From positions 310,001 to 374,000 of the forward strand of contig NIVC01000215.1 in assembly GCA_002269645.1 (NCBI GenBank): a stretch of DNA of 64,000 nucleotides. Direction: 5' to 3'. This stretch comes from Macrostomum lignano. Taxonomy: Eukaryota. Below the pieces are notes generated by a model. That model did no database searches and was not told where the DNA came from. It worked only from the letters and a program-made list of their open reading frames with translations. The position numbers and the translations under genes were made by a program. Below are positions 3,001 through 64,000 of the stretch, in pieces; within the stretch, counting starts at the first letter, position 1, and each line of letters starts with the position of its first letter.

Positions 3001-5024
3001 CAGAGCTTTCTTTGAGTTGAGACTGATTGGTTATTTTATGCCCCACGGGCAAAGGATTCAAGATAGGCTATGGCTTATATTAACTGGATAAGTATTAACT
3101 GATTAATTGACTGTCTGTTTATTATTAACGCAAAGAAAGTTACTAATTCAAGCAGGTTATTATTGTTAAGAAAATTAAGCTACAGATGAAAATGAGTTCG
3201 TGGGCGCCAGTGTGCTAATAAGCTAAGGATGAATTAAACTGTAACTGAAACACACGAAAACACAAGCGCAAGCAAGAACAATGGAAACAAAAATGGAAAA
3301 CAAAAAACAGAAGACAAAAAAATGGGGGGAAGAGAAAGAGAGAGAGAAAGCATGAAGAAATTCAACCGAAAACACACTTATTTATACAATGAAATTATTA
3401 AATTCCCAGGTGTGGGGCCAGGACTTATTAACACCAGGGCCACACATGGGTCCACACTCAGGTTATAAAACAAAAGCCCCAAAAATACACACAAAATTAT
3501 TAAAACTCAACCGATGAAAATTTATATTGACCAACTAAGGAAAAAAACTATAACAACCAATGGTCCAAACACGGGGCCAACCGGGGGGGAAAGGGTGAGG
3601 TCACCGTCTGCCGTTGGCTGCAAGGGTTGGAAACTTACAAAAAGATGGCACACAATTAAAAATAGAAAAAAAATTATTAAAATATTATTAAATGGTGGCA
3701 ACCCCACTGCCACAAAAGTATCTTTGTTTTACTCAACCTGTTTCTAATATTTTTTCAATTTTTTAAATTAATAACTATGGCTATAGGAATCCATGGAATG
3801 TGACGGAATGGCCACACAACAAAATGGCCACATAAAACAAAATGTTTCAGACATCTATTGCATTTTATACTATTAGGACAAAAAATATAATAATTTGTAA
3901 TAGAAGTACAAAATATCTTTATAGCATTATCTAGCATATTATTATATCTTTATAGCATATTATTAGTAATAGTTATCCTAAAGATAACTATAATGGCTCC
4001 TAAAGAAACTAAAAATTGAGTTCTATTTATAAAAGCCCTAAAAATTGGTAGCATTCACTCATTTCCACTGCTATATCTTGCCATTAATGAAATCAAGGGT
4101 TCTGATAAGCATAGCCTAGTCTTTTATGTTTTTTAAGTCTCAATTATTAAATGGCCAGTAATAATTTTTTTAGATAGGCCTATAACAATTAAATATAGGA
4201 AGTATATGCTCTTATAGCCAAGTCCATGATCTATACTTTTTGCCTAAAAACTTTTATCTATAACTTCCTACAATATATTTGTATCCATAACTATTATAAA
4301 ACTAAATTTTGTGCTAAATAAAAATTTGAATCTTGGGATAGGTCTGTTTATATTATTAATGCCCTTATATTTTTAATGCAGAATTAAATATAAAAGCTAT
4401 TATTCATTATATACTTAATATAAGTATATTTATGTATCTAATTTTTTTGCCAAACAAAGAAATTGGCTTTCTGTGAGTTTTATTTTATATTAAGTTTTAA
4501 TTTTTAATCTTGCTAGACTATTTGTAAAAATATCTATTGGCTATAATATGGATTTAAGTGCCCATTTAAAGGACAATATTCTATTTGCCAATTTTATAGT
4601 AACATTAGGATATCATATATATCTATTTAACACTTCTTTGACAATATTCCTCAACTACAATCAGACAATTTGATCAATGCCTAAAAGGCTAAAAATAGAA
4701 AACCAAAATGATATGCACAGTGTACTTTTTCATTAGCTAAACTCTGTTGTTACATTAGTCCATAAGTCCACTCGCTCTGTAAACTAAGGGTTTTTTGTGT
4801 CAGCATCTGTCATGACTTATCAACTTTTATTTTGACATCCTTATAAAAGATTGGGAGTGTAGAGATGATGGTGTTTTACAAGTATCTGGTTTTGAACTTT
4901 TTGACTGATGCCAGCTGCCACTTAGGATGCCAAATGGCAATGCAATTCTTACACTTAAAGGCAAGACATAAGATACACCAAAAGACATTTCCTTGCTTTC
5001 AGTGACTCAGTTCAAGCATTCATC

Positions 5025-6358
5025 ATGCACCGGGTAGTGAAAATGCGACTCAGCCAGTTGAATCCGCACATCACTTGCCCACTCTGTGCTGGCTACTACA
5101 TTGATGCTACAACCATTGTTGAATGCCTGCACTCATTTTGCCGCTCCTGTCTATTGCGACATTTGGCTGGCAGTAAGTGCTGCCCAGTATGCGACATATT
5201 ACTGCACAAAACTGATCCTAGGAAGGCAATTAAAGCTGATCGAAGTCTGCAGTCGTTGGTGTACAAGCTAGTGCCTGGCCTGTTCAAGGCTGAGATGACG
5301 CGGAGGTGAGTCGCAAAAATTCTCTACCAATTCAGGGATATTTAAGTTTACGAAGCATCTTTTCCTAAAGCTGAAGGTTGTATAACCTCAAACCAGAGTT
5401 CCCAAATCCCTGGAACAAATATCTCATATCCCTGAATCCTAGATCCCATATTCCTGAAGCAAAGATCCCATATTCCTGAAGCAAAGATCCCATATTCCTG
5501 AAGCAAAGATCCCATATTCCTGAAGCAAAGATCCCATATTCCTGAAGCAAAGATCCCATATTCCTGAAGCAAAGATCCCATATTCCTGAAGCAAAGATCC
5601 CATATTCCTGAAGCAAAGATCCCATATTCCTGAAGCAAAGATTCCATATTCCTGAAGCAAAGATTCCATATTCCTGAAAGCCAAGGCCAGCAATCTTTTA
5701 CTCATTACGCAGATAAAAGTCTCCCAATCGGAAATCCCAAAAACTTATGTATATTACTAAATCCCCGCACGCCCGCAACCGCAGGCGCGAGTTCTACCGG
5801 GCAAACCCGAGCCGCGACCTCAGCCTTGGTCCCGAAGGCCGCGGCGAACTCGCCCACCCTGGCGACGTGGTCGACGAAACCGAGACTCTGTCCGTGTCGC
5901 TCGAACTAGTGGACCCCGGCGGTCGCTTAGCAACCACCGGCGAGCATCGAGAGCTTCGATCCGACTTTGTGGACTTAAAACGGCCCTGCTATCTGTTAAC
6001 TCCAGCCTGTTTGACTGTCGGGCATCTGTGCACTTTTATTCGACTCAAACTCGGCCTGTCGCCCAACCAGTCTGTGTCGATATTTTACACTGACGACTGC
6101 CTGAGCGCCGACTATTCCGTCATGGACATCGCCTACGTGTACTCATGGCGGCGTAGGGGCCCGCTGCGGCTTTTCTATGCCATTGTGGATAAGTCTAAGG
6201 CTCAGCAGCCGCCGCCACCGCCAGGATTTGAAGGCCGATTATCGACTAATAAACTGGCAGCGGATCAATTATCGGTTGGCAGCAGCGAAGCTATGGATGA
6301 CGATACTTCGGCTACAGAATCGGGATCGGAATCTGATGAGGATTCTGGGGGCAGGTAG
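5025..6358 (+). CDS. PCGF: Polycomb group RING finger protein (PCGF; BMI1/Psc-like), 2 coding exons: 5025-5305, 5785-6358
   Basis: Exon 1 encodes a C3HC4 RING: LNPHITCPLCAGYYIDATTIVECLHSFCRSCL...CPVC...DRSLQSLVYKLVPGLF. A phase-2 intron (GTGAGT at 5306, CAG ending 5784) restores EMTRR-REFY, matching BMI1 EMKRRRDFY. Exon 2 has a RAWUL-like region (DIAYVYSWRRRGPLRLFY). Exact paralogue not determinable. Confidence 0.93.
5440..5680. repeat. 22-bp tandem repeat (AGATCCCATATTCCTGAAGCAA) in the PCGF intron
   Basis: About 11 near-identical units read directly; explains ORFs 5348, 5365, 5439. Confidence 0.95.
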
Positions 6359-10852: not shown

Positions 10853-10990
10853 GGAGCTGGATTCTCATTGAAATTGAGCTGGATTCTCTCAGTGAGATTG
10901 GGCTGGATTCTCAGTGAGATTGAACTGGATTCTCATTGAGATTGAACTGTGTTCTCATTGAGACTGAGCTGCAGAACTCTCGGTGAGATA
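10853..10990. repeat. Short array of the 22-bp GAGATTGAGCTGGATTCTCATT satellite in globin intron 1
   Basis: Same unit as the large array at 13630-18150. Confidence 0.85.
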
Positions 10991-12562: not shown

Positions 12563-15500
12563 ATGCAAAAGCACTCGTCAGTTTCATTGGGTAGAAATGA
12601 AGCTGACGTTGTGGTAAGTAATTACCATTATTGGTTTGAATCGCATAAATAACATTAAATCAACCCAGCCCAGAAGAAACTGAAGCCCAGAAGCTTTTCT
12701 CCGAATTATCGACTGCTGATTTTATGGATATTACTTTACATGGTGACGAATTTAAATTGAATTTAAATTTGAATTTATATTCTTGTTCTACACAACAAAA
12801 CTTTACTTTTCCTGCATATTGTACAATTAATGTTATAGCTATCATCATTTAAACATCCGTGAATTATAAATTTATTGATTTACGTTAAAAAAAACTAACC
12901 GTTTTTCAGATGTTTCAAGAGCGTTGTGGGCTAGTAATGAAGTGGGTAAGTTAAAATCAATAATACTTTCAAAGACTGAATTTCTCAATGACATTATTTT
13001 CATATGATATAATCTTTCATTAAGAAATGCTTAAGTTGCTTCATAACATAATTTCACTTTATTAGGAAAAAAACTTTTTGGGATAAAATTAAATACTAAG
13101 CCTTTGTGTCTAACTGAATTAAGGTAAAATTTAGGTAATGCCACTTTGTTTAAATATTTATAACAAAAAAAGCTATGAAAATATTGCATTGTTTATATAC
13201 TACTACTTGGAATATTTCATAGTTAATTAATAAAATATTTTATCAAGTATCAATTTCAGTTAGATGACCACTAAGATAAAAAAAACCTGTATATATTTTT
13301 CCATTTTAGTTCAGCAAATGGAACCCGGAGCAGAGACAAGTGCTGCTTCACGAGCTGCTGGAGGACTGCACTATCCAGGAGTCAGACTTCCTGCACCAGC
13401 GCACTCGACGCTACGTTCCTCAGGTGCGCGTCGACATGACAGTGGAGCTGCCCAGACGGCTGAGTTTGAAGATCTTCTCCTACCTTGATCCGCGTAGTCT
13501 TTGCCGATGCGCTCAGGTAAAAAAGTTATTAAAACAGCTATTCAACTATTTGTTAATAAATTATTATTGCAATATTAATAAAATACTGAAATTTAGACAC
13601 TATGTTATACGAGTATGAAGCTTCAAGCCTTCGGAATGCTTTGAGAACGAGCTGGATTCTCGATGAGATTGAGCTGGATTCTCAATGAGATTAAGCTGGA
13701 TTCTCAATGAGATTGAGCTGGATTCTCAATGAGATTGAGCTGGATTCTCAATGAGATTGAGCTGGATTCTCAATGAGATTGAGCATTATTTTCATTGAGA
13801 TTGAGCTGGATTCTCAATGAGATTGAGCTTTATTTTCATTGAGATTGAGCTGGATTCTCAATGAGATTGGGCTGGATTCTCATTGAGATTAAGCTGGATT
13901 CTCAATGAGATTGAGCTTTATTTTCATTGAGATTGAGCTGGATTCTCAATGAGATTGGGCTGGATTCTCATTGAGATTAAGCTGGATTCTTAATGAGATT
14001 GAGCTTTATTTTCATTGAGATTGAGCTGGATTCTCAATGAGATTGAGCTTTATTTTCATTGAGATTGAGCTGGATTCTCAATGAGATTGGGCTGGATTCT
14101 CATTGAGATTGAGCTGGATTCTTAATGAGATTGAGCTTTATTTTCATTGAGATTGAGCTGGATTCTCATTGAGATTGAGCTGGATTCTCATTGAGATTGA
14201 ACTTGATTCTCATTGAGATTGAGCTGGATTCTCATTGAGATTGAGCTGGATTCTCATTGAGATTGAGCTGGATTCTCAATGAGATTGAGCTGGATTCTCA
14301 ATGAGATTGAGCTTTGTTTTCATTGAGATTGAGCTGGATTCTCAATGAGATTGAACTGGATTCTCAATGAGATTGAGCTGGATTCTTAATGAGATTGAAC
14401 TGGATTCTTATTGAGATTGAGCTGGATTCTCATTGAGATTGAACTGGAGTCTCAATGAGATTGAGCTGGATTCTTAATGAGATTGAGCAGGATTCTCATT
14501 GAGATTGAGCTGGATTCTCATTGAGATTGAGCTGGTTTCTCATTGAGATTGAGCTAGATTCTCATTGAGATTGAGCTGGTTTCTCATTGAGATTGAGCTG
14601 GTTTCTCATTGAGATTGAGCTGGATTCTCATTGAGATTTAGCTGGGTTAGGGGTGTTCGGGGTTCGGGGTCGGGATTAGGGGTCGGGGTTCGGGGTCCCG
14701 ATGAATGTTCGGGATGGGGTTCGGGGTTCCCGATAAATGTTCGGGATCGGGGTACGGGACGGGATTTTGGACCGGGATTTCGGGGTTTTCGGGGTTTCGC
14801 AAATTTTCTGAATTCCCATAGAACTACGAAAAAATCCTTATGAATTAGAATGTCGTCCTCTATGGTCTGCGGCAATTTCTTTCTGCTGATGTTGACGGCG
14901 TCGCTCGATCCATTCGGAGGCGTTTTATGGAGCAGCTGAACAAGTACACGTTTGAGTGCAAAGACTTCAACATCTTGTTCTACAAGACCGCTGCTTTTCT
15001 AGACAATACCATCGTCGCATCGCCTCATCTAAACCTGGGTGACATGGTGGACATCCAAAACCATCTCAAGAGTGAGGTCATCTGGAGCCTTGAGCAGGAG
15101 CTTTCTGGGCAAGATGCCGCTGCTGCTGCCAGCAGCGCAAATACAATGGCCGCTACCGAGGAGATGCACGATAATGTCACTTCGGGTACTGAAGACAGCT
15201 CTGGATGCAAGTTTTTGCAGTTCTGCAGATTATCTGGAATTACCACTCAGGAGTGCAATGCGACTGCGAGTGCATCGAACTCTGGCGCCAGAGGAGACGC
15301 GAGGAAGAAGGAAGCGAGGCGCAGAGCAGCTGATCAGCTTTCTCTGTACAGGAGTCTGGCGCAGCAGAATTTTCAGGTAGCAGTCAGCGAATTCTGGAAG
15401 CAGAACTCCGCTAATCTTCCAGAGCTGGCAGAGCTCGCCAAGCTTCACCTCACTGCCCCAGCATCATCTGTCCCATCAGAGTGCGCCTTCAGTGCTGCCG

Positions 15501-18500
15501 GTTTTCTAAAGCGCAATGAACGCTGCATCCTTTCCAGCTCATCGCTCAGCAAGTTAATGTTCTTGCGAGACAAGTTCGATTAGCTGTATGCCATATTCGT
15601 TGAGCCAGAGACTGTAAAGTGACTCGCGTTCTATTCTATTATCACTTGATAGTCTGATCATTTAGATTAGATGACATGAGAATTCAGATTATTTTTGTGT
15701 TTACTAGCGTCAACGTGCATCAATGGCAATGCCACCAAAGACTAAGTAAACGAGATTAAGAAAAAGAGAGATTGATTCTTGATTTATAAGATAGCTTCCA
15801 TCTCTGCAGAGAAAGAGACACATGATGTTTCACACATCAAACACATCAAAATTGTTGCACAATGAACACAACAGTTGAGTTCGTAAGTTCGTTAGTTCGT
15901 ATTTCGTATTCGTAATCGATGGAATTGAATAATATACTGAAAAAAATAGTGATTCACAATTGGAAAAAGAAAACAAAAGAAATGCAACCTGCCTTAAATT
16001 AATTTCACATAAATTTTAAGTTGAACTGAAAGTCTGAACAGACTAATAGTCGTAAGTAGCCGTCAATACCACTTTTTATTTCATGCTATTGCTTACTTCG
16101 GGTTTATCGGGGTTCGGGGTCGGGATTAGGGTTCGGGACGGGGTTCGGGGTTCCCGATAAATGTTCGGGACGGGGTTCGGGATTCCCGAAAGATGTTCGG
16201 GATCGGGGTTAACCCCGAACCCCGAAAAAAATGCCATCCCGAACACCCCTAAGCTGGATTCTCAGTGATATTCAAGAGCTGGATTCTTAATGAGATTGAG
16301 CTGGTTTCTCATTGAGATTGAGCTGGATTCTCATTGAGATTGAGCTGGTTTCTCATTGAGATTGAGCTGGATTCTCATTGAGATTGAGCTGGTTTCTCAT
16401 TGAGATTGAGCTGGATTCTCAGTGATATTCAAGAGCTGGATTCTCAATGAGATTGAGCTGGTTTCTCATTGAGATTGAGCTGGATTCTCATTGAGATTGA
16501 GCTGGTTTCTCATTGAGATTGAGCTGGATTCTCATTGAGATTGAGCTGGTTTCTCATTGAGATTGAGCTGAATTCTCAGTGATATTCAAGAGCTGGATTC
16601 TCAATGAGATTGAGCTTTATTTTCATTGAGATTGAACTGGATTTTCAATGAGATTGAGCTGGATTTTTAATGAGATTGAGCTGGTTTCTCATTGAGATTG
16701 AGCTGGATTCTCATTGAGATTGAGCTGGATTCTCATTGAGATTGAGCTGGTTTCTCATTGAGATTGAGCTGGATTCTCATTGAGATTGAGCTGGTTTCTC
16801 ATTGAGATTGAGCTGGATTCTCAGTGATATTCAAGAGCTGGATTCTCAATGAGATTGAGCTGGTTTCTCATTGAGATTGAGCTGGATTCTCATTGAGATT
16901 GAGCTGGTTTCTCATTGAGATTGAGCTGGATTCTCATTGAGATTGAGCTGGTTTCTCATTGAGATTGAGCTGGATTCTCAGTGATATTCAAGAGCTGGAT
17001 TCTCAATGAGATTGAGCTTTATTTTCATTGAGATTGAACTGGATTTTCAATGAGATTGAGCTGGATTTTTAATGAGATTGAGCTGGTTTCTCATTGAGAT
17101 TGAGCTGGATTCTCATTGAGATTGAGCTGGATTCTCATTGAGATTGAGCTGGATTCTCATTGAGATTGAGCTGGATTCTCATTGAGATTGAGCTGGTTTC
17201 TCATTGAGATTGAGCTGGATTCTCAGTGATATTCAAGAGCTGGATTCTCAATGAGATTGAGCTTTATTTTCATTGAGATTGAACTGGATTTTCAATGAGA
17301 TTGAGCTGGATTTTTAATGAGATTGAGCTGGTTTCTCATTGAGATTGAGCTGGTTTCTCATTGAGATTGAGCTGGATTCTCATTGAGATTGAGCTGGTTT
17401 CTCATTGAGATTGAGCTGGATTCTCATTGAGATTGAGCTGGTTTCTCATTGAGATTGAGCTGGATTCTCAGTGATATTCAAGAGCTGGATTCTCAATGAG
17501 ATTGAGCTTTATTTTCATTGAGATTGAACTGGATTTTCAATGAGATTGAGCTGGATTTTTAATGAGATTGAGCTGGTTTCTCATTGAGATTGAGCTGGAT
17601 TCTCATTGAGATTGAGCTGGATTCTCATTGAGATTGAGCTGGATTCTCATTGAGATTGAGCTGGATTCTCATTGAGATTGAGCTGGTTTCTCAGTGATAT
17701 TCAAGAGCTGGATTCTCAATGAGATTGAGCTTTATTTTCATTGAGATTGAGCTGGATTCTCATTGAGATTGAGCTGGTTTCTCATTGAGATTGAGCTGGA
17801 TTCTCATTGAGATTGAGCTTTATTTTCATTGTGATTGAGCTGGATTCTCATTGAGATTTAGCTTTATTTTCATTGAGATTGAGCTGGATTCTCAATGAGA
17901 TTGAGCTTTATTTTCATTGTGATTGAGCTGGATTCTCATTGAGATTTAGCTTTATTTTCATTGAGATTGAGCTGGATTCTCATTGAGATTGAGCTTGATT
18001 CTTAATGAGATTGAGCTGGTTTCTCATTGAGATTGAGCTGGTTTCTCATTGAGATTGAGCTGGATTCTCATTGAGATTGAGCTGGATTCTCATTGAGATT
18101 GAGCTGGTTTCTCATTGAGATTGAGCTGGTTTCTCATTGAGATTGAGCTGGGATCAGGCCGAGATCGCGCTAGTCAACAGAAGTTTCCTGTATTTTTATT
18201 TGCAGAAAAATTTTATTAACTGAACATTTAACTTTCGTTGCGTGCTACTTCTTTACTAGAAAACTAGTAGCGAGTCTTACCTTTAATTACTTTCGCTCTC
18301 CAAGGTGAATTCGCGCTGGCACTGGCTCTCTGAGGCCAACGAAGTTTGGCTGCCGAAGTGCAACAGGTTGCGCTGGCTGCTGCCGCCTGAAGGTCACGAA
18401 GACATTCAGCGTACCATGCGCTGGACTGGCGGCGCCCTCCTACCAGACGGTGTGTACAAGCGGCTGTACAGGGATAATCTGCTTAGTTTACAGGTGAGCG

Positions 18501-21500
18501 GGGTTTTGCATGATGCTTGATTTTATAGTCATTGAGAGTGGAAAAAATCTAAGTAATATAGCTAGTAGTATACTACTGAAGATCAGTATAATAGCTAGTA
18601 GTATAGAAGCTACTGCAGATACAGTTGTTTAGTAAATAGTAGTATATAAATGCTTTTTACGAGTATTAGTAATTTTTTCAAAAATATCTTCATGTACTAC
18701 AGTGTCAAAATATATAAATTAAATTGAATTTTCAATAGTCTCTATTTCTTTTCTTTGTTTAACATAGGACGGTCACCAGGTAATAATTATTTATTTGTGT
18801 GTTTTTCTTGGACCAATGCTTAAATCGCTACTTTAGGATTCTATATATTACCTATAATTGCACTGTCATTGTTATTGAAGTTTTACCATCACCATCTTTG
18901 CGTAGATTTGCTTGTTCATAACATAAAGGGAACATAAAAATGAGGAAAATTGGGGCCTAATGTGAAGTTCCTGCACACTGCACCGGCTGTACGGGCAGTA
19001 CGACTCAACGCAGTTGATTTGACTGGCTTCGTTGAGTGCTATAGTACATGTACATCCTTTGTCAACGGCGTCTTCAATCCTAGCAAGCCACCCGCTTGAT
19101 TGGTCAAAATCTTTGACGGTTGGACCAAGGCCAAAGTCACGTGACTGTTCCCGTGTTTTAACGGTTGGACCAAGGCCAAAGTCACGTGACTGTTCCCGTG
19201 TTTTAACGGTTGGACCAAGGCCAAAGTCACGTGACTGTTTTCGGGTTTAAACCGAGACCGCCCCGCCAGATTCAAGACTTAAATATTTATACTTCGAACG
19301 CAAAAAGGGGTGTTAAAAATCGATGAGAGTGCCCGCAGGGAGAGAGTGGCAGACAGATTAAACATGAACAAGGCTAGAGATAAGGACAGCCCTGGGAGTG
19401 GGGGTTGGTGGAAGGCCAAAACGCAGGGTGGAGATAAGAATTAAACACACAGTCAGCGAGACAGCCAGCCAATCAGAAAGCAGAAGGAGGGACGAACGGA
19501 GAGCAGAGGATTGCAAAAACACACACGAGCACCCAGCAGAGACAGGAATACCTATGCTTTCATTTGATAGCGTTCGCATTGTTTTTCAGTAGTATCTCAT
19601 CTGTATTTCTAATTCCGGATATGTTTAATTTTTTTCCTAAAAATTCAAAGCACGACGGAGTAGCACTGATGGAGCGCGACAGGCTGCTGGAGACGTCTCG
19701 CCGGCAGGATGCTCAGGTCGAAGCTGAGCGCCAGACCCGCCTGGAGACGTCCAGACGGAGGCAGCTGCCGCTGATGCAGGCGCCCTGGCACTCCAGTGGA
19801 GCCGCTCCACCTCACCGGTTCAACGTGCTGGATAGTCAGGATATTCAACGAATGGACTCCAGGAGGAGGGATCCGCCGCCGAGGAACACGTAAGTCTCCT
19901 CGTGTTGCGTCTTTGCTAATTATTTCCTTAGGAAAATCCCTGCTGCTTCCGATATTTGAGGGAAATCCCTGTTTCGTGTATCTAAGGGAAATCTCTGTTT
20001 CTTTGATCTAAGGGAAATCCCAGTTTCTTTGATCTAAGGGAAATCCCAGTTTCTTTGATCTAAGGGAAATCCCAGTTTCTTTGATCTATGGGAATTCCCA
20101 GTTTCTTTGATCTAAGGGAAATCCCAGTTTCTTTGATCTAAGGGAAATCCCAGTTTCTTTGATCTAAGGGAAATCCCAGTTTCTTTGATCTATGGGAATT
20201 CCCAGTTTCTTTGATCTATGGGAATTCCCGTTTCTTTGATCTATGGGAAATCCCTGTTTCCTCGATCTAAGAGAAATCCCTGTTTCACGTATCTAAGGAA
20301 AATCCCTGTTTCGTGTATGTAAGGTAAATCAGTGTTTCGTGTATGTATGGGAAATCCCTGTTTCGTGTATCTAAGGGAAATCCCTGTTTCGTGTATCTAA
20401 GGGAAATCCCTGTTTCTTTGATCTATGGGAAATCCCTGTTTTTTTGATCTATGGGAAATCCCTGTTTCTTTGATCTATGGGAAATCCCTGTTTCTTTGAT
20501 CTATGGGATATCCATGTTTTAAGTTATTGCTTATTTTCTCTGATGAACTAAAAGCGTAAACCGACGCTTATTATTGAGCCACATTTATTGTTATTTGGAT
20601 TTCCCTGCCCCAGAATGAGGAGCGTTGTGCAGGTGCCCTCCGGTCGACCATTCCGCTCCTCAATCAACATATCGGGCAGTTCGCCGGAGCGAGCCGAGCT
20701 CCGTGGAACCACAGCAACAATGCTGAACACATCGAGATCTTTTCACGCGACTGTAAGAATTATGGGCACTTTAAATAGCTGTGTACTCGTAAAATGATCG
20801 GACGCGATTAACTTTTCTAACTCCCCAATAATCCATTTGTCAGAGAGCTCTGTTCTCCGAGTCCACCACGCAGACACCTGCGGCTCTGTGGCAGGCCGCC
20901 TCAGCCGCCGCCGCCGCTGCCGCAGCCGCTTCTGATGAAGATGGCAATGACGAAAAGAAGAAGAAGGACAAGAAAAATAAGAAAAAGGACAAAGCCGGTA
21001 GCGGCGAAGATGGAAGCGACAGCGATGGAGGCGACAAGAAAAAGGACAAGAAGAAAAAGAAGAAGAAGGACAAAGCCGGAAGCGGCGAAGATGAAAGCGA
21101 CAGCGATGGAGGCGACAAGAAAAAGGACAAGAAGAAAAAGAAGAAGAAGGACAAAGCCGGAAGCGGCGAAGATGAAAGCGACAGCGATGGAGGCGACAAG
21201 AAGAAGGACAAGAAGAAAAAGAAGAAGAAGGACAAAGCCGGTAGTGGTGAAGATGGAAGCGACAGCGATGGAGGCGACAAGAAGAAGGACAAGAAGAAAA
21301 AGAAGAAGAAGGACAAAGCCGGTAGCGGTGAAGATGAAAGCGACAGCGATGGAGGCGACAAGAAGAAGGACAAGAAGAAAAAGAAGAAGAAGGACAAAGC
21401 CGGAAGCGGCGAAGATGAAAGCGACAGCGATGGAGGCGACAAGAAGAAGAAGGACAAGAAAAAGAAGAAGAAGGACAAAGCCGGAAGCGGCGAAGATGAA

Positions 21501-21710
21501 AGCGACAGCGATGGAGGCGACAAGAAAAAGGACAAGAAGAAAAAGAAGAAGAAAGATGGTAGCGAGGAAGAAGAGGACAGCGAGGGCGAGGGCAAGCAGA
21601 AGAAAAAGAAGAAGGAAAAGCAGATAGAGGAGTTCAAGCCGAGGAAGCTGAATCTGAAGGAGGGCGCGTCTGGTAGAGGCAGTCAGCCTCTGCTGACTCC
21701 AGACTCCTGA
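12563..21710 (+). CDS. FBXO16: F-box protein, FBXO16-like. Exons 12563-12613, 12910-12945, 13310-13516, 18305-18493, possibly 18768-18779, 19651-19889, 20614-20752, 20844-21710
   Basis: [12 protein letters not shown]|[20 protein letters not shown]...[24 protein letters not shown]|[19 protein letters not shown] parallels FBXO16 (FEERRALLGKWFDKW...[28 protein letters not shown]...LWMLKC), recalled from memory. APWHSS...RFNVLDS parallels its PPWRSS...RFNYLDN. All junctions are GT-AG and phase-compatible; AATAAA at 21818. True start, microexon and attachment of the last two exons are less certain. Confidence 0.8.
13630..18150. repeat. 22-bp satellite (GAGATTGAGCTGGATTCTCA[A/T]T) in the FBXO16-like intron, interrupted by the hAT element
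   Basis: Arrays at about 13630-14647 and 16252-18150. Confidence 0.97.
14648..16251 (+). mobile_element. Internally deleted hAT DNA transposon, 1604 bp
   Basis: 14-bp TIRs TAGGGGTGTTCGGG (14648) and CCCGAACACCCCTA (ends 16251). 8-bp flanks AGCTGGGT and AGCTGGAT match 7/8. GGGGTTCGGG subterminal repeats. ORF 14927-15583 ends in a hAT dimerisation domain (FWKQN...[26 protein letters not shown]); no N-terminal transposase portion. Confidence 0.9.
19114..19250. repeat. 45-bp tandem repeat x3, each unit containing the palindrome GTCACGTGAC
   Basis: ACGGTTGGACCAAGGCCAAAGTCACGTGACTGTTCCCGTGTTTTA-type unit read three times. Confidence 0.9.
19930..20520. repeat. 26-bp tandem repeat (AAGGGAAATCCCAGTTTCTTTGATCT), intronic
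   Basis: Directly visible. Confidence 0.93.
20988..21554 (+). repeat. Coding 81-bp repeat x7 ([27 protein letters not shown])
   Basis: Units start at 20988, 21069, 21150, 21231, 21312, 21393, 21474. The frame from 20844 is open to TGA at 21708-21710. Confidence 0.9.
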
Positions 21711-43415: not shown

Positions 43416-59505
<16,090 letters not shown>

Positions 59506-59624
59506 CGGGTTGCTCTTTAATGGATCAACTCATAATGTGCAACGCATGACTTGTATTTAGCCATAAGGTTCCTGTCCTGAAGAAATATTTAACCTGACCC
59601 AACTTCTAGCTAGCAAAACATGCA

Positions 59625-62600
59625 GCGGCCATAGACTATTGCACGAGCGTATGTCATGTCTCCCTCCAGAAGGAAAGAGTTGAACTATGTCTCCGAACAA
59701 TGTAAACTTTATGTTAGGAACTCAACAGATAACTAATTCAAATTCAGCGTGTCAGGTTTCATTTTGGTTACTCGTAATGTGTAGCTAATGCGTTTTTTAG
59801 CAGTCATGAGGAGTAGCGGTCTGGTTGGCGACGCATCCGGGTGCTACGGCGAATTCCACCTGCTTCTTGTTCTTGCGCGCCTTGGTTCGAATTGTCGCTG
59901 GGGTTCCCTGCCTCCGTGTCTGCGGGATCTCCTGCCATTGATTCTTCATCGTCGTGTGGCAGTGGAGCAAGTTGGTTGTCGCTTGCCAAACGCAGTTCGC
60001 TCCCGTCCAACACGAAGGCCGTGTTGCGGCCTCGGTTCATCACGTATTCGACAGTGGAGGGTGGAACGTCCGAGGTTGGCTGATACAGAACGCGCTCGCC
60101 TTGGTTGAACGTGGAGACTACAGGAGCGCGTAGTTGGCGTCCGAAAACAATCTCAGCTGGCGTCTTGCCCCTACACGTAGATGAGTTTCGGTGATGAAAC
60201 AGCAATCGCTGTAGATAGGGAACAAATTCAGCGTGGGTGGTTCGTTCGTTCCAGGCCCGCAGAGCTCGTTTGACTGTCTGGACTGCTCGCTCAGCCGATC
60301 CATTGGCCTGGGGATAATAAGTTGGGGATTCCATCTTCTTTATGCCATTTTGGTGCAGCCAGCTCCTCAGTGAATCGCTGACGAACTCCGGAGCATTGTC
60401 CGAAACTAAAAGTTCAGGCACACCAAAGCGTGTGAAAACAGTTCTGAGGCATTTAATGATCTGGTCTGTGGATCGATCTTTACAGGGAAAGGCCTCGATC
60501 CAACCAGAGTGAGAGTCGACTGCTATCAGGATGTTTCCAACATTCTTTACGTACGCCCAGTCAACGTGAAGCTTTTGAAACGGGTATTCAGTCGATGGCC
60601 AGGTGTCTCTGGTCTTCCCCAATCTGGGCCGCAGCCTGTTGCATACATCACACTGGCTGACAAATCGCTCGATGTCAGCGCGCATTCCAGGCCACCAGCA
60701 GGACAAGCTCATGAAGTTGAGTGTCGCCAGAGACCCAGAGTGAGTGTCATGCGCTGCACGAAAAGCTTCTTTCCGCAGTCTTGGCGGAATGTAGACCTGG
60801 CGACCCTTGAACAGTAAGCCGTCCTCGATAGTTAGGCATTGCGATACGGCCTGGAATGGTTTCTCAGCCTGAGAACAGCCAGCCCAGTTTCCCGAGCGAA
60901 CTCGGTGCATCACTTTTTTTATGAGCTCATCCAACTCTAGCTCTGCGGCAACCCGGTTCCTGGAAATGACAGACGGCTCGAAGGCAACGCAATCAATGGC
61001 TTCGCAGACTTCCGCCGAATCGTTAGATGAGTCAGTGAAGCGTAGGCGAGAAAGCGCATCGGCATGTGGAATCTTCTCTCCTGGTATATAGCGTATGGTG
61101 TAGTCAAGGTGCATCATCGCGAGTGCCCATCTGCTAATGCGAGCGGAGGTGTTCAGCGGCACCCCGCGAGACTGGCCGAAGAGCTGTTCGAGAGGCTTAT
61201 GATCCGTCTGTATTGTAAAGTGGCGGCCCAGTAAATAGTGCTTCAGCCGGCTGACTGCCCAAAAAACGGCAAGGGCTTCTCGCTCTATGTTCGAATAGTT
61301 TTGTTCGGCAGTAGAAAGACACCGAGAAATATAGATCACAGGATGGCCATCTTGCGTGACCACTCCTGCAAGTGCTCCCTTGGAGGCATCTGTGGTAAGA
61401 GTGAGTTCCTTTTCTAATGAGTATGGCTGGACTATGGGTTGAGAGGCAATCTCCGTCTTGAGTTGTCTGAAGGCTCGGTCACACTCAGCTGTCCACTGAA
61501 AGTTGGCGTCCGCTCTGCGCAGTCGATTTAGCGGCTGGATCTTTCCAGAGAAATTGGGTACTAGCCTTCCAAAGAAGTTTATTAGACCAACAAATCGTTC
61601 CAGCTCCTTCTTGTCTTTAGGTTGTGCGATGCTGCGTATTTTCTCAACCAATCGATCATCGGGTTGGATGCCAGCAGCAGAAATTTTAAATCCCAGAAAT
61701 GATATTTCATCAGTCGCCTCGATGCATTTGCTTTCGTTGATGGTGACATGCTTTTCTGCCAGCCTAGTCTTCACAGCACGAAGTCTTTTCTGTAGTGAAT
61801 CACTGTTTTCGGCGAAAACTAATACGTCGTCTTGGTAGATGAGAACGCCCTTTAGGTCTGACAGAATACTTTCCATCGCGCGCTGAAAAATAAAAGATGC
61901 ATTCTTCATCCCCATCTGAAGTCTTTTCACGCGAAATAATCCTTTGGATGTGTTAATTATTGAGAGATCCTGAGCAGCCTCGTCCAATTCTATCTGCCAA
62001 TAGGCCGACCTCAGGTCTACTTTGGCGAACTTCTTGGCGTTTTTTAGTTTGGAAAATAGGTGCTCCACGCTAGGGATGGGATAGTCCTCTGATTTGATCT
62101 TTGCGTTGACGTGAACGCTGTAGTCAGCGCACATCCTTAGGGTTCCATCTTTCTTTTTGACCCAGACGACAGGAGAAGCATTGCTCACCGGGCCGTCAAC
62201 TGGTTCTATCACGCCCAGCTGCTGCAGCCTGTCCAATTCAGCGTTGATGGAGGATTCCAGGGCGACAGGCACGGGACGCGCACGGCAAAACCTCGGAGTG
62301 GCACCAGCGATGGTCTCCATTTTGGCCTTGATGCCTTTAATCACGGGTAGGGCATCCACGCTGTTACCGATGCTAGTGGAGCATGTGCTGTGGACTTGCG
62401 CTGAGTCCAATAAGTCACGGCCTAACAGACCGAATGTCTTAGAGGCCTGTACAACGATCAGTTCAGCAGGGTGAAACTTGCCGCGAAGCTCAATGGCGGT
62501 TGATAACTTGCCGAGGACTTTAAGCGTGTGGCCATCGTAGGCTTGAAGACGGCGATGACACTTCTGGAGGGCCGGGCGGCGGAGTGACTCCCAGAGAGTG

Positions 62601-63784
62601 CTTGAAATGACGCTCACCGCAGCACCGGTGTCTACTTGCATTGGGATTTGAGCACCATTGATGCCTATGTTTTCCAGTGTCGAGTCGATAGCGTGAATCG
62701 TGTCCGCGTCCCCAAGGTGAAGAAGGGACGTGGTATCTGGTTGCGGCGTGTCTGCGTTTGAGAGCTCCTCGACGTTGTGGAGCTGGCGTGGTCGGGAGGA
62801 TCGACATACTGATGCAAAGTGGTTTGGTTTTGAGCATTTGCTGCAGGTTTTTCCAAACGCTGGACACTTTCCAGCAACATGGACTTGACCGCAGTAGCCA
62901 CAATGTCCAGTGCGTGGTCCAATCTTGCGCGGAGTGGTAAAGTTGTTCTTTGTAGCCAAAGAGCCATGGTGAATCTCCGGAACAGTTTCCTTTGGTGGGG
63001 AGGTCGTGAACGGCGTGGAGGCTTGTTTGGACACGAACTCTTTCACTTGCTTGATCTGGGCAACAAAATCTACGATTTCCTCGACCGACAGCTCCTTGAT
63101 CTGCATAGCTTCTAGAACTTTTTGCTGTGTTGTGGGACAGTGCATGCCAGCGACTAACGCCAGTTGAATCATGACCTCTTCTGGGCTTTCTGCCTCTTTC
63201 AGCGAGTCGAATTTGCAATGTTGGGCGGCCTTTCTTAGGCGCGAGAGGTAATCCGGAAGAGACTCGTCGTGCTGTTGCCGGATGGTGTAGAAGCGAGTTC
63301 GCTCGGCAATGGTGATGCGCGTCTTTGGTTGAAGGTAACTTTGAATGGCGGCCTCGATTGCAGAAAACTCCAATTCGTCGATCTTCTTTGGGGCCACCAG
63401 AGATGTTAGCTTTTCAAGTGCTGGCAATCCGCATAGTGCTAGAAAGTTATCCGCAATTTCTCTGTTGGTGCCTTCATCTTTCCATTTCTTGGCTCGAGCG
63501 AGCGCACGGAATGCTGTTAGCCATGTCAGGGCGCGCTCAGGTTCTGAGAGTTCGATGCGTCCAAGTGCTTGCGACGCCATTGTGATGCTCTGCTGGCAAC
63601 TCTAGTGCTTGATGAATAACGAAGCTCGTATCTTGCTTTGCTTGTTTATTTGGCTTTAGGACCACATTAATGCTAGCGGGGCTTGTAACAAGATTATGAA
63701 ACTAGGACACTTATATATTAGGAAGGGATGAGGGAGGTGGCATTTGGGCGCAGCGGCCATAGACTATTGCACGAGCGTATGTCA
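59625..63784 (-). mobile_element. Ty3/Gypsy LTR retrotransposon with a complete 5' LTR (63784-63581) and a 3' LTR truncated to 35 bp (59656-59622)
   Basis: On the minus strand the 5' LTR runs TG...CA over 204 bp and contains TATATAAG and AATAAA. A PBS-like TGGCG follows after 1 nt. A polypurine tract GGAGGGAGA precedes the 3' LTR start. Perfect 57-bp direct repeats flank the element (59568-59624 and 63785-63841). Confidence 0.92.
59804..63580 (-). CDS. Gypsy gag-pol polyprotein, 1258 aa, single uninterrupted ORF
   Basis: Gag with a CCHC knuckle (CSKCSKPNHFASVC), protease DTGA, RT YQDD, RNase H TTDAS, integrase HHCC and D-D-E (VDWA, SDNAPEF, ERAVQT); PR-RT-RH-IN order. Confidence 0.97.
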   Translation of the reverse strand: MASQALGRIELSEPERALTWLTAFRALARAKKWKDEGTNREIADNFLALCGLPALEKLTSLVAPKKIDELEFSAIEAAIQSYLQPKTRITIAERTRFYTIRQQHDESLPDYLSRLRKAAQHCKFDSLKEAESPEEVMIQLALVAGMHCPTTQQKVLEAMQIKELSVEEIVDFVAQIKQVKEFVSKQASTPFTTSPPKETVPEIHHGSLATKNNFTTPRKIGPRTGHCGYCGQVHVAGKCPAFGKTCSKCSKPNHFASVCRSSRPRQLHNVEELSNADTPQPDTTSLLHLGDADTIHAIDSTLENIGINGAQIPMQVDTGAAVSVISSTLWESLRRPALQKCHRRLQAYDGHTLKVLGKLSTAIELRGKFHPAELIVVQASKTFGLLGRDLLDSAQVHSTCSTSIGNSVDALPVIKGIKAKMETIAGATPRFCRARPVPVALESSINAELDRLQQLGVIEPVDGPVSNASPVVWVKKKDGTLRMCADYSVHVNAKIKSEDYPIPSVEHLFSKLKNAKKFAKVDLRSAYWQIELDEAAQDLSIINTSKGLFRVKRLQMGMKNASFIFQRAMESILSDLKGVLIYQDDVLVFAENSDSLQKRLRAVKTRLAEKHVTINESKCIEATDEISFLGFKISAAGIQPDDRLVEKIRSIAQPKDKKELERFVGLINFFGRLVPNFSGKIQPLNRLRRADANFQWTAECDRAFRQLKTEIASQPIVQPYSLEKELTLTTDASKGALAGVVTQDGHPVIYISRCLSTAEQNYSNIEREALAVFWAVSRLKHYLLGRHFTIQTDHKPLEQLFGQSRGVPLNTSARISRWALAMMHLDYTIRYIPGEKIPHADALSRLRFTDSSNDSAEVCEAIDCVAFEPSVISRNRVAAELELDELIKKVMHRVRSGNWAGCSQAEKPFQAVSQCLTIEDGLLFKGRQVYIPPRLRKEAFRAAHDTHSGSLATLNFMSLSCWWPGMRADIERFVSQCDVCNRLRPRLGKTRDTWPSTEYPFQKLHVDWAYVKNVGNILIAVDSHSGWIEAFPCKDRSTDQIIKCLRTVFTRFGVPELLVSDNAPEFVSDSLRSWLHQNGIKKMESPTYYPQANGSAERAVQTVKRALRAWNERTTHAEFVPYLQRLLFHHRNSSTCRGKTPAEIVFGRQLRAPVVSTFNQGERVLYQPTSDVPPSTVEYVMNRGRNTAFVLDGSELRLASDNQLAPLPHDDEESMAGDPADTEAGNPSDNSNQGAQEQEAGGIRRSTRMRRQPDRYSS

Positions 63785-63865
63785 GTTCCTGTCCTGAAGA
63801 AATATTTAACCTGACCCAACTTCTAGCTAGCAAAACATGCACTCAAGTTTAAGTACTATCCGCTC

Positions 63866-64000
63866 TCCCAGATCCTCAGTTGCTGGGCCAGCCTCCCAGA
63901 TCCTCAGTTGCTGTGGGCCAGTCTCCCAGATCCTCAGTTGCGGGGCCAGCTTCCCAGATCCTCAGTTGCTGGGCCAGTCTCCCAGATCCTCAGTTGCGGG
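63866..64000. repeat. About 28-bp tandem repeat (CCAGATCCTCAGTTGCTGGGCCAGCCTC) running off the window
   Basis: Directly visible. Confidence 0.88.

What the first reader, a model, noticed from the sequence alone, without database searches (positions are those of the whole stretch)
59568..63841. Intact Gypsy element with one truncated LTR and a perfect 57-bp target duplication (A-B...B-A ends)
Seen: segment A (57 bp, GTTCCTGTCC...AAAACATGCA) is identical at 59568-59624 and 63785-63841. Segment B (35 bp) is identical at 59622-59656 and 63750-63784. B is the first 35 nt of the 204-bp 5' LTR, so the 3' LTR stops after 35 bp and joins A through a 3-nt microhomology (GCA). The other end is a clean TG terminus. 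Known: Gypsy integrases give 4-6-bp TSDs and two full LTRs; in retroviruses, one-ended integration finished by host repair gives large target duplications. Inference: this is a recent germline record of half-integrase, half-repair insertion (or cDNA capture at a staggered break). It lies antisense about 60 bp after the RDL-like stop codon and could alter that 3' UTR. Identical repeats and an intact ORF imply youth.
Basis: partly seen in the sequence, partly recalled or inferred. Interest (0 to 1): 0.8.

Follow-up and report, generated by a model that had tools for sequence, protein, structure and literature searches.

The report
Retrotransposon inserted with one repaired end
A jumping gene in a flatworm seems to have been joined to the chromosome normally at one end and patched in by cell repair at the other, leaving a long duplicated stretch, a rare outcome already known from retroviruses.

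Summary
A (57 bp) and B (35 bp) are exact, maximal repeats at the stated coordinates and the two longest of 6 dispersed exact repeats in 39,489 unmasked bases.

They flank a 4.16-kb minus-strand Gypsy (Mag-like) element with one open 1258-aa ORF, a 204-bp 5' LTR and a 3' LTR cut after 32-35 nt. The host is a Macrostomum flatworm.

The intact end starts at TG, 2 nt after the polypurine tract, with no microhomology, as integrase processing would give. The other end has 3 nt of microhomology (5% by chance).

This matches aberrant one-ended HIV/ASLV integrations and germline HERV-K loci with 13-450-bp duplications, so the kind is known. Best mechanism: one-ended integration plus host repair (0.55). 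A later exchange with an empty copy (0.2) or an assembly chimera (0.15) gives the same sequence. No reads, sibling copies or empty site were available.

Corrections: foreign DNA begins 119 nt after the channel stop codon, not 60, and the repeats alone bound divergence only to <3.2%. Extra lead: the flank resembles the polypurine-tract region (12/18, post hoc).

The parts
59113..59505 (+). Putative last exon (TM4) and TGA stop of an RDL-like GABA-gated channel gene; other exons from about 44126 to 56100
   Evidence: tblastn with named GABA-receptor proteins; Pfam Neur_chan_memb; acceptor AG at 59111-59112
59506..59567 (+). Host 3' UTR, single copy (62 nt); holds a minus-strand ATTAAA at 59521-59516
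59568..59624 (+). Segment A, left copy (57 bp); on the element strand, the copy joined to the truncated LTR
59622..59624 (.). 3-nt microhomology shared by A and the LTR stub
   Evidence: chance of 3 nt or more is 0.051-0.053
59622..59656 (-). 3' LTR stub B: first 32-35 nt of the LTR; ends before the TATA (LTR position 68) and AATAAA (135)
59657..59667 (-). Polypurine tract (59667-59659) and 2-nt spacer (59658-59657) before the TG
59804..63580 (-). Single gag-pol ORF, 1258 aa: two Cys-His knuckles, protease, RT, RNase H, integrase with D-D(35)-E
63568..63579 (-). Primer-binding site starting TGG (far end approximate); the Gag ATG overlaps its first two bases
   Evidence: 24 of 62 closest relatives begin with MAS; tRNA partner not identified
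63581..63784 (-). Full 5' LTR, 204 bp, TG...CA; termini match only 4 of 7 as inverted repeats
63785..63841 (+). Segment A, right copy; abuts the LTR TG with no microhomology; its 18 nt next to the LTR match the element's PPT side 12 of 18, one base out of register
63842..64000 (+). 22 nt of unique host DNA, then a 28-bp minisatellite to the window end

Best explanation
A complete cDNA of a Mag-like Gypsy element was joined to the chromosome by its integrase at the U3 end only: 2 nt were trimmed and the exposed CA was joined at the A boundary. The U5 end failed to join. Host repair then trimmed it back about 170 nt, paired its last three bases with the start of A, 57 bp behind the first joint, and copied A again before rejoining the chromosome. 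This could be template switching at a fork that ran off the free cDNA end, or priming followed by recombination. Shown: the repeats, the junction letters, the ORF and the PPT/PBS positions. Inferred: that A is single in the empty site, that integrase made the TG junction, and the order and enzymes of repair. Predicted consequence (inferred): the copy keeps its promoter and proteins but lacks the 3' R region and poly(A) signal. It would be immobile in cis and read through into the channel's 3' UTR, antisense.
For: The inserted DNA has U3 upstream of the PBS, so it is finished cDNA, not an RNA retro-copy. The TG junction lies exactly 2 nt after the PPT, lacks those 2 nt and has no microhomology; normal HIV integration also loses 2 bp per end. 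The other end is truncated, does not end in CA and has 3-nt microhomology. PMC5041404 describes that set: one normal end, the other often truncated with short homology, most commonly with a large host duplication. HERV-K has 8 listed loci with duplications over 10 bp among 451 putative TSDs. A has host-like GC (0.40, adjacent UTR 0.40, element 0.51) and no significant local match to the LTR or the element's 3' UTR (shuffle P 0.42-0.77).
Against: No empty site, sibling copy or read was seen. Two-step and assembly models give identical letters. Three nt of microhomology arise by chance 5% of the time, and nine longer (5-6 nt) shared words between the LTR and the flank were not used. Unperturbed HIV gave 0 of 99 and 0 of 85 aberrant proviruses, and I found no defect in the U5 terminus or the integrase motifs. 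The flank's resemblance to the PPT side is not predicted by this model.
Confidence: 0.55

Rival explanations
1. Two steps. A normal insertion (two LTRs, 5-bp duplication) came first. Later a break in the 3' LTR was repaired from an empty copy of the locus (homolog, homoeolog or an older tandem duplicate), crossing over at the 3-nt microhomology. That removed the rest of the LTR and brought in a second A.
For: It explains the canonical TG end and the microhomology equally well. Kahyo et al. raise such pseudo-TSD models for HERV-K. M. lignano carries three subgenomes 1.4-2.4% apart, and a 57-bp homoeologous copy would still be identical with probability 0.25-0.45.
Against: It needs a second rare event at a young locus (under about 0.9% change per site), landing within 57 bp of the insertion point on the empty template. 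Ordinary LTR-truncating deletions lose the duplication rather than gain one (general knowledge).
Confidence: 0.2
2. Assembly chimera. A filled haplotype broken inside the 3' LTR was joined to an empty haplotype or homoeolog starting at A.
For: 1,131 of 5,269 scaffolds of the M. lignano Mlig_3_7 assembly are chimeric between subgenomes; which assembly this window comes from is unknown. The window is 38% tandem repeat, and an array starts 22 nt beyond A.
Against: There are no Ns, and the 3.8-kb ORF and matched channel exons are open. The join would have to fall 57 nt from the insertion point and on a 3-nt match. A consensus step would be expected to keep the rest of the LTR (inference).
Confidence: 0.15
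3. Integrase-independent insertion guided by the primer tail, as for Tf1. A single-stranded PPT-side tail on the cDNA annealed to a PPT-like host site, and a distal part of the cDNA then recombined nearby, truncating the other LTR.
For: The 18 host nt next to the intact LTR match the element's PPT side 12 of 18; omnibus P about 0.003 over 10,911 window positions. Li et al. 2022 report PPT-like flanks upstream of intact 5' LTRs and speculate about distal truncation. The five bases after the LTR recur 3 nt into the far flank (308 of 69,226 positions, P 0.004).
Against: Both resemblances were noticed after the fact. The match is 1 nt out of register (in register 5 of 18, P 0.47). It is not significant within the purine tract (P 0.12), against dinucleotide shuffles (P 0.02-0.11) or by duplex energy (P 0.05-0.17). 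The 2-nt spacer that an annealed tail would carry is absent.
Confidence: 0.08
4. A belongs to the element family (part of a longer or permuted terminal repeat, like split-repeat elements) and is not host DNA.
For: The order A-B...B-A recalls permuted repeats (recalled, no call). The end of A resembles the PPT side.
Against: PPT and PBS bound an ordinary LTR that excludes A. The enzyme is a DDE integrase, not a tyrosine recombinase. A 54%-identical relative has a PPT followed directly by a TG-starting sequence. A has host-like GC.
Confidence: 0.02

Closest known systems
Aberrant one-ended HIV-1/ASLV proviruses (Varadarajan et al. 2016, PMC5041404; passages and one results section read)
   Same: One normal end; other end truncated, with short homology; large duplication of host DNA.
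   Different: Those were induced by drugs, integrase mutants or mutated ends in cultured cells, with duplications up to hundreds or thousands of bp. This is a natural copy of an env-less retrotransposon with a 57-bp duplication and no visible end defect.
HERV-K (HML-2) loci with long target duplications (Kahyo et al. 2017, PMC5488345; parts 1-3 of 4 read)
   Same: Germline LTR elements with 13-450-bp flanking duplications, including an exact 61-bp case and a 111-bp case beside a provirus lacking its 3' LTR; the same doubt between true and pseudo-TSD.
   Different: Those are mostly solo LTRs or decayed proviruses in primates. This copy has an open ORF, a 35-nt LTR stub and a readable microhomology.
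Integrase-independent Tf1 insertion by Rad52 annealing (Li et al. 2022, PMC11042837; parts 1-3 of 10 and passages read)
   Same: Intact 5' LTR with a PPT-like upstream flank; truncation of the far end proposed.
   Different: Tf1 flanks match the last PPT bases in register and most events hit existing copies. Here the match is off register and the 2-nt spacer is lost.
Mag-clade Ty3/Gypsy elements (Culex table in PMC3286476, passages; M. lignano families in PMC12801592, part 1 of 6, passages and supplements 1 and 5 in part)
   Same: Short LTR (Culex 119-304 bp), about 4-5 kb, no env, often a single ORF, PBS starting TGGCG after a 1-nt spacer as in Mlig-id115.
   Different: 20 of 21 listed Culex Mag copies have 5-bp duplications (one has 4 bp) and two LTRs. 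Here the Gag ATG overlaps the PBS.
Somatic opus, Tabor and mdg1 insertions in Drosophila gut (PMC8090852, passages)
   Same: LTR elements reported with unexpectedly long duplications (medians 23, 26, 25 bp).
   Different: Somatic, few events, end structure not described in the passages I saw; the authors call the relevance uncertain.

Membership tests
Ty3/Gypsy LTR retrotransposon | Domain order protease-RT-RNase H-integrase | tested here: met
   Pfam positions 305-391, 474-633, 696-823, 931-1089
Ty3/Gypsy LTR retrotransposon | LTR with TG...CA ends, PBS and PPT | tested here: met
   only one LTR is complete
Canonical integrase-made insertion | Two full LTRs and a 4-6-bp duplication | tested here: not met
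   3' LTR 32-35 nt; duplication 57 bp
Mag clade | Placement with reference Mag elements in an RT tree | tested here: inconclusive
   Tree of 39 rows (38 of 120 listed hits plus the query): the query lies in a 100/100 clade of 22 rows with three M. lignano proteins, but no labelled Mag reference was included
Mag clade | Short LTR, no env, small size, paired Cys-His knuckles in Gag (knuckle pattern recalled, not from a call) | tested here: met
   204-bp LTR, 4.16 kb, knuckles at residues 227 and 246; ranges
Mag clade | PBS complementary to tRNA-Ser, -Leu or -Arg | not testable with these tools
   No tRNA gene in the window (0 found); no host tRNA set
Aberrant one-ended integration | One end at the processed terminus | tested here: met
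   TG junction 2 nt after the PPT, no microhomology
Aberrant one-ended integration | Other end truncated, with short homology to the appended DNA | tested here: met
   169 nt missing; 3-nt match, chance 0.05
Aberrant one-ended integration | Duplicated segment single in the pre-insertion site and formed at insertion | not testable with these tools
   No genome, reads or other alleles available
Tf1-type integrase-independent insertion | Flank matches the last PPT bases in register | tested here: not met
   2 of 5 and 5 of 18 in register; 12 of 18 only at a 1-nt offset
LINE-driven retro-copy of an LTR element | 5' U3 missing and a poly(A) tail present (recalled) | tested here: not met
   U3 present, no A tail at either junction

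The most novel reading that the evidence does not exclude
This is a natural animal germline record of primer-tail-guided insertion. A PPT-side single-stranded tail on the cDNA picked a PPT-like host site, that end was fixed at the exact LTR terminus, and the other end was rescued by microhomology repair. If so, the Tf1 pathway, or a hybrid of it with integrase, operates in metazoan Gypsy elements. This family, whose termini match only 4 of 7, would then make such one-ended insertions repeatedly.
Probability: 0.08. Interest if true: 0.7.

Novelty: new member of a known kind. Interest (0 to 1): 0.38.

Why it matters
If real, it is an unusually clean natural example of an outcome studied mainly in drug-treated or mutant retroviruses, with both junctions readable in a coding-intact invertebrate retrotransposon. 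Such copies are missed by finders that need two LTRs or a short duplication, so their frequency is probably under-counted; a genome-wide count in Macrostomum would give a natural rate of failed concerted integration. One locus does not settle mechanism. The possible antisense read-through into a GABA-channel 3' UTR is a local, untested effect.

Tried and rejected
- Sibling copies: none elsewhere in the window (blastn; tblastn with 6 relatives hit only this element).
- Protein search: 349 hits among 7,999 scored candidates, best 62-67% identity, best named hit M. lignano 59%; no near-identical family member and no DNA context.
- Bacterial/archaeal genome scan: 1 of 120 candidate stretches was a relative (54%, 3' part only).
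- The cluster look-up could not be made. Metagenome and viral contig collections were not searched, so sibling copies there remain unchecked.
- Five short element or flank motifs were absent from the 5 supplements of PMC12801592. These hold only six families, and long alignment rows are cut.
- No Rfam match in 59000-64000 and no canonical heat-shock element in the LTR.
- No strong hairpin at the truncation point or in A (-1.9 to -6.1 kcal/mol, no shuffle control).
- No extended homeology around the microhomology (6 of 20 before, 1 of 20 after).
- A as a diverged LTR or 3' UTR copy: local alignments not significant.
- Literature: nine searches. None showed this structure for an invertebrate Gypsy germline copy, but the library lacks most subscription papers, and I saw the original ASLV and raltegravir papers only as citations.
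Full report
OBSERVATION. The repeats are as described. A (57 bp) is identical at 59568-59624 and 63785-63841, and B (35 bp) at 59622-59656 and 63750-63784; neither extends. After masking tandem arrays (38% of the window), 6 exact dispersed repeats of 16 nt or more remain in 39,489 bases, of lengths 57, 35, 20, 18, 17 and 16. Chance is excluded and the pattern occurs once in the window.

THE ELEMENT. On the minus strand the order is: A, a 204-bp LTR (63784-63581), PBS, one ORF (63580-59804, 1258 aa), a 147-nt 3' UTR ending in a polypurine tract and a 2-nt spacer, the first 32-35 nt of the LTR, then A again. Pfam gives protease, RT, RNase H, integrase zinc-binding and core domains in Gypsy order. 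The catalytic motifs are present, with integrase D1061 and E1097 spaced as D(35)E. The LTR has a TATA at position 68 and AATAAA at 135. The Gag ATG overlaps the PBS, and 24 of the 62 closest relatives begin with MAS, which supports the PBS position. The best relatives are 62-67% identical; the best named one is from Macrostomum lignano (59%). In a tree of 39 RT-RNase H rows (38 of 120 listed hits plus the query) it sits in a fully supported clade of 22 with three M. lignano proteins. No labelled Mag reference was in that tree, so 'Mag-like' rests on anatomy.

THE HOST. The neighbouring gene is an RDL-like GABA-gated channel with exons from about 44126 to the stop at 59503-59505. An M. lignano protein matches three of its exons at 98-100%, so the host is M. 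lignano or a close relative. A begins 62 nt after the stop, but if A is host DNA the first foreign base is 119 nt after it.

THE JUNCTIONS. At the intact end the LTR starts at TG, the position that lies 2 nt after the PPT in the other copy. Those 2 nt are absent and there is no microhomology. Normal HIV integration also loses 2 bp per end. At the other end 169 nt of LTR are missing, none of the possible break positions leaves a CA end, and three bases are shared with the start of A. Three or more shared bases occur in 5.1% of random joins and 5.3% of LTR-by-flank position pairs; nine shared words of 5-6 nt were available and not used. There is no wider homeology and no strong hairpin. Because U3 lies upstream of the PBS and there is no A tail, the inserted molecule was finished cDNA (inference).

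AGE. Zero differences in 92 repeated sites bound pairwise divergence to 3.2% (95%). Adding the absence of stops in 3,774 nt, under neutrality, bounds change since insertion to about 0.9% per site. That is young, but not necessarily very recent.

MECHANISM. Varadarajan et al. 2016 (PMC5041404; passages and section 10) report proviruses with one normal end and the other often truncated, usually with short homology, and most commonly a large host duplication. They explain this by host polymerase priming from the free viral end followed by recombination. This locus fits each point, and I give the model 0.55. The specific route I favour, a replication fork running off the free cDNA end and restarting 57 bp back on the intact sister, is inference. 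Against it: unperturbed HIV gave 0 of 99 and 0 of 85 such events, and I see no end or enzyme defect, only termini that match 4 of 7.

RIVALS. A normal insertion followed by a microhomology exchange with an empty copy gives the same letters (0.2). Kahyo et al. discuss such pseudo-duplications. M. lignano has three subgenomes 1.4-2.4% apart, from which 57 bp would still be identical 25-45% of the time. An assembly chimera also gives the same letters (0.15): 1,131 of 5,269 Mlig_3_7 scaffolds are chimeric between subgenomes, though I do not know the source assembly, and the local sequence is gap-free with open frames. I could not separate these three without reads or alleles.

The 18 host bases next to the intact LTR match the element's own PPT-side bases 12 of 18 at a 1-nt offset. 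Calibrated over nine lengths and five offsets on 10,911 window positions, P is about 0.003. Li et al. 2022 (PMC11042837; parts 1-3 of 10 and passages) found PPT-like flanks upstream of intact 5' LTRs in integrase-independent Tf1 insertion, and speculated about truncation of the far end. The evidence against is as strong. The test was post hoc, and in register the match is 5 of 18 (P 0.47). Within the purine tract P is 0.12, by duplex energy 0.05-0.17, and against dinucleotide shuffles 0.02-0.11. The spacer an annealed tail would carry is gone. I give it 0.08.

WHAT IS KNOWN. Germline precedent exists. Kahyo et al. 2017 (PMC5488345; parts 1-3 of 4) list 8 HERV-K loci with duplications of 13-450 bp among 451 putative TSDs, including an exact 61-bp case and a 111-bp case beside a provirus without its 3' LTR. 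Somatic opus, Tabor and mdg1 insertions in Drosophila had median duplications of 23-26 bp (PMC8090852, passages). The norm for Mag is 5 bp in 20 of 21 listed Culex copies. Nine literature searches showed no invertebrate Gypsy germline case with this full anatomy, but the library is partial. Supplements of the HIV and HERV-K papers, which I did not open, may list closer junction matches.

CONSEQUENCES (inferred). The stub ends before the TATA and the poly(A) signal, so transcripts from the 5' LTR would lack the 3' R region. The copy could supply proteins but not complete reverse transcription in cis. Read-through would run antisense into the channel UTR, where a minus-strand ATTAAA at 59521-59516 could end it near the stop codon. 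On the plus strand the first AATAAA or ATTAAA after the stop is at 61889, inside the element; only an AAGAAA variant lies in A. The channel's native poly(A) site is unknown. The two A copies could permit precise loss by recombination, as Kahyo et al. suggest for their locus.

VERDICT. A real-looking, cleanly readable non-canonical LTR insertion, and a new member of a known kind. Interest 0.38. Sibling copies, the empty site and read support all stayed unchecked.

Noticed in passing
window 63785-63802 vs 59658-59675: Host bases next to the intact LTR resemble the element's PPT side, 12 of 18 at a 1-nt offset; omnibus P about 0.003, post hoc.
   Followed up: yes
window 59560-59564 (minus strand): The five bases that follow the 5' LTR recur 3 nt into the far host flank, so the predicted empty site loosely mimics PPT-then-PBS (P 0.004, post hoc).
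   Followed up: partly
window 63578-63580: The Gag start codon overlaps the PBS; 24 of 62 relatives begin with MAS, suggesting a clade-wide arrangement. One search listed nothing on it by title or abstract.
   Followed up: partly
window 63581-63784: LTR termini are asymmetric (TGA... versus ...ACA; 4 of 7 inverted match), unlike the TGT...ACA of the published M. lignano Mag family.
   Followed up: partly
L001 1-2572: A 54%-identical Gypsy fragment sits on a 2.6-kb contig of a bacterial MAG, probably eukaryotic contamination.
   Followed up: no
window 4959-5306 (+): RING-finger (C3HC4) coding stretch, PCGF/Bmi1-like by recalled resemblance.
   Followed up: no
window 13310-13615 and 18287-18517 (+): F-box-like exon and a probable following exon; the second has no Pfam match.
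   Followed up: no
window 20951-21553: 81-bp tandem array rich in Lys/Asp codons, possibly a coding repeat.
   Followed up: no
window 10854-10971, 13641-14645, 16252-18151: The same 22-bp minisatellite unit occurs in three separate arrays.
   Followed up: no
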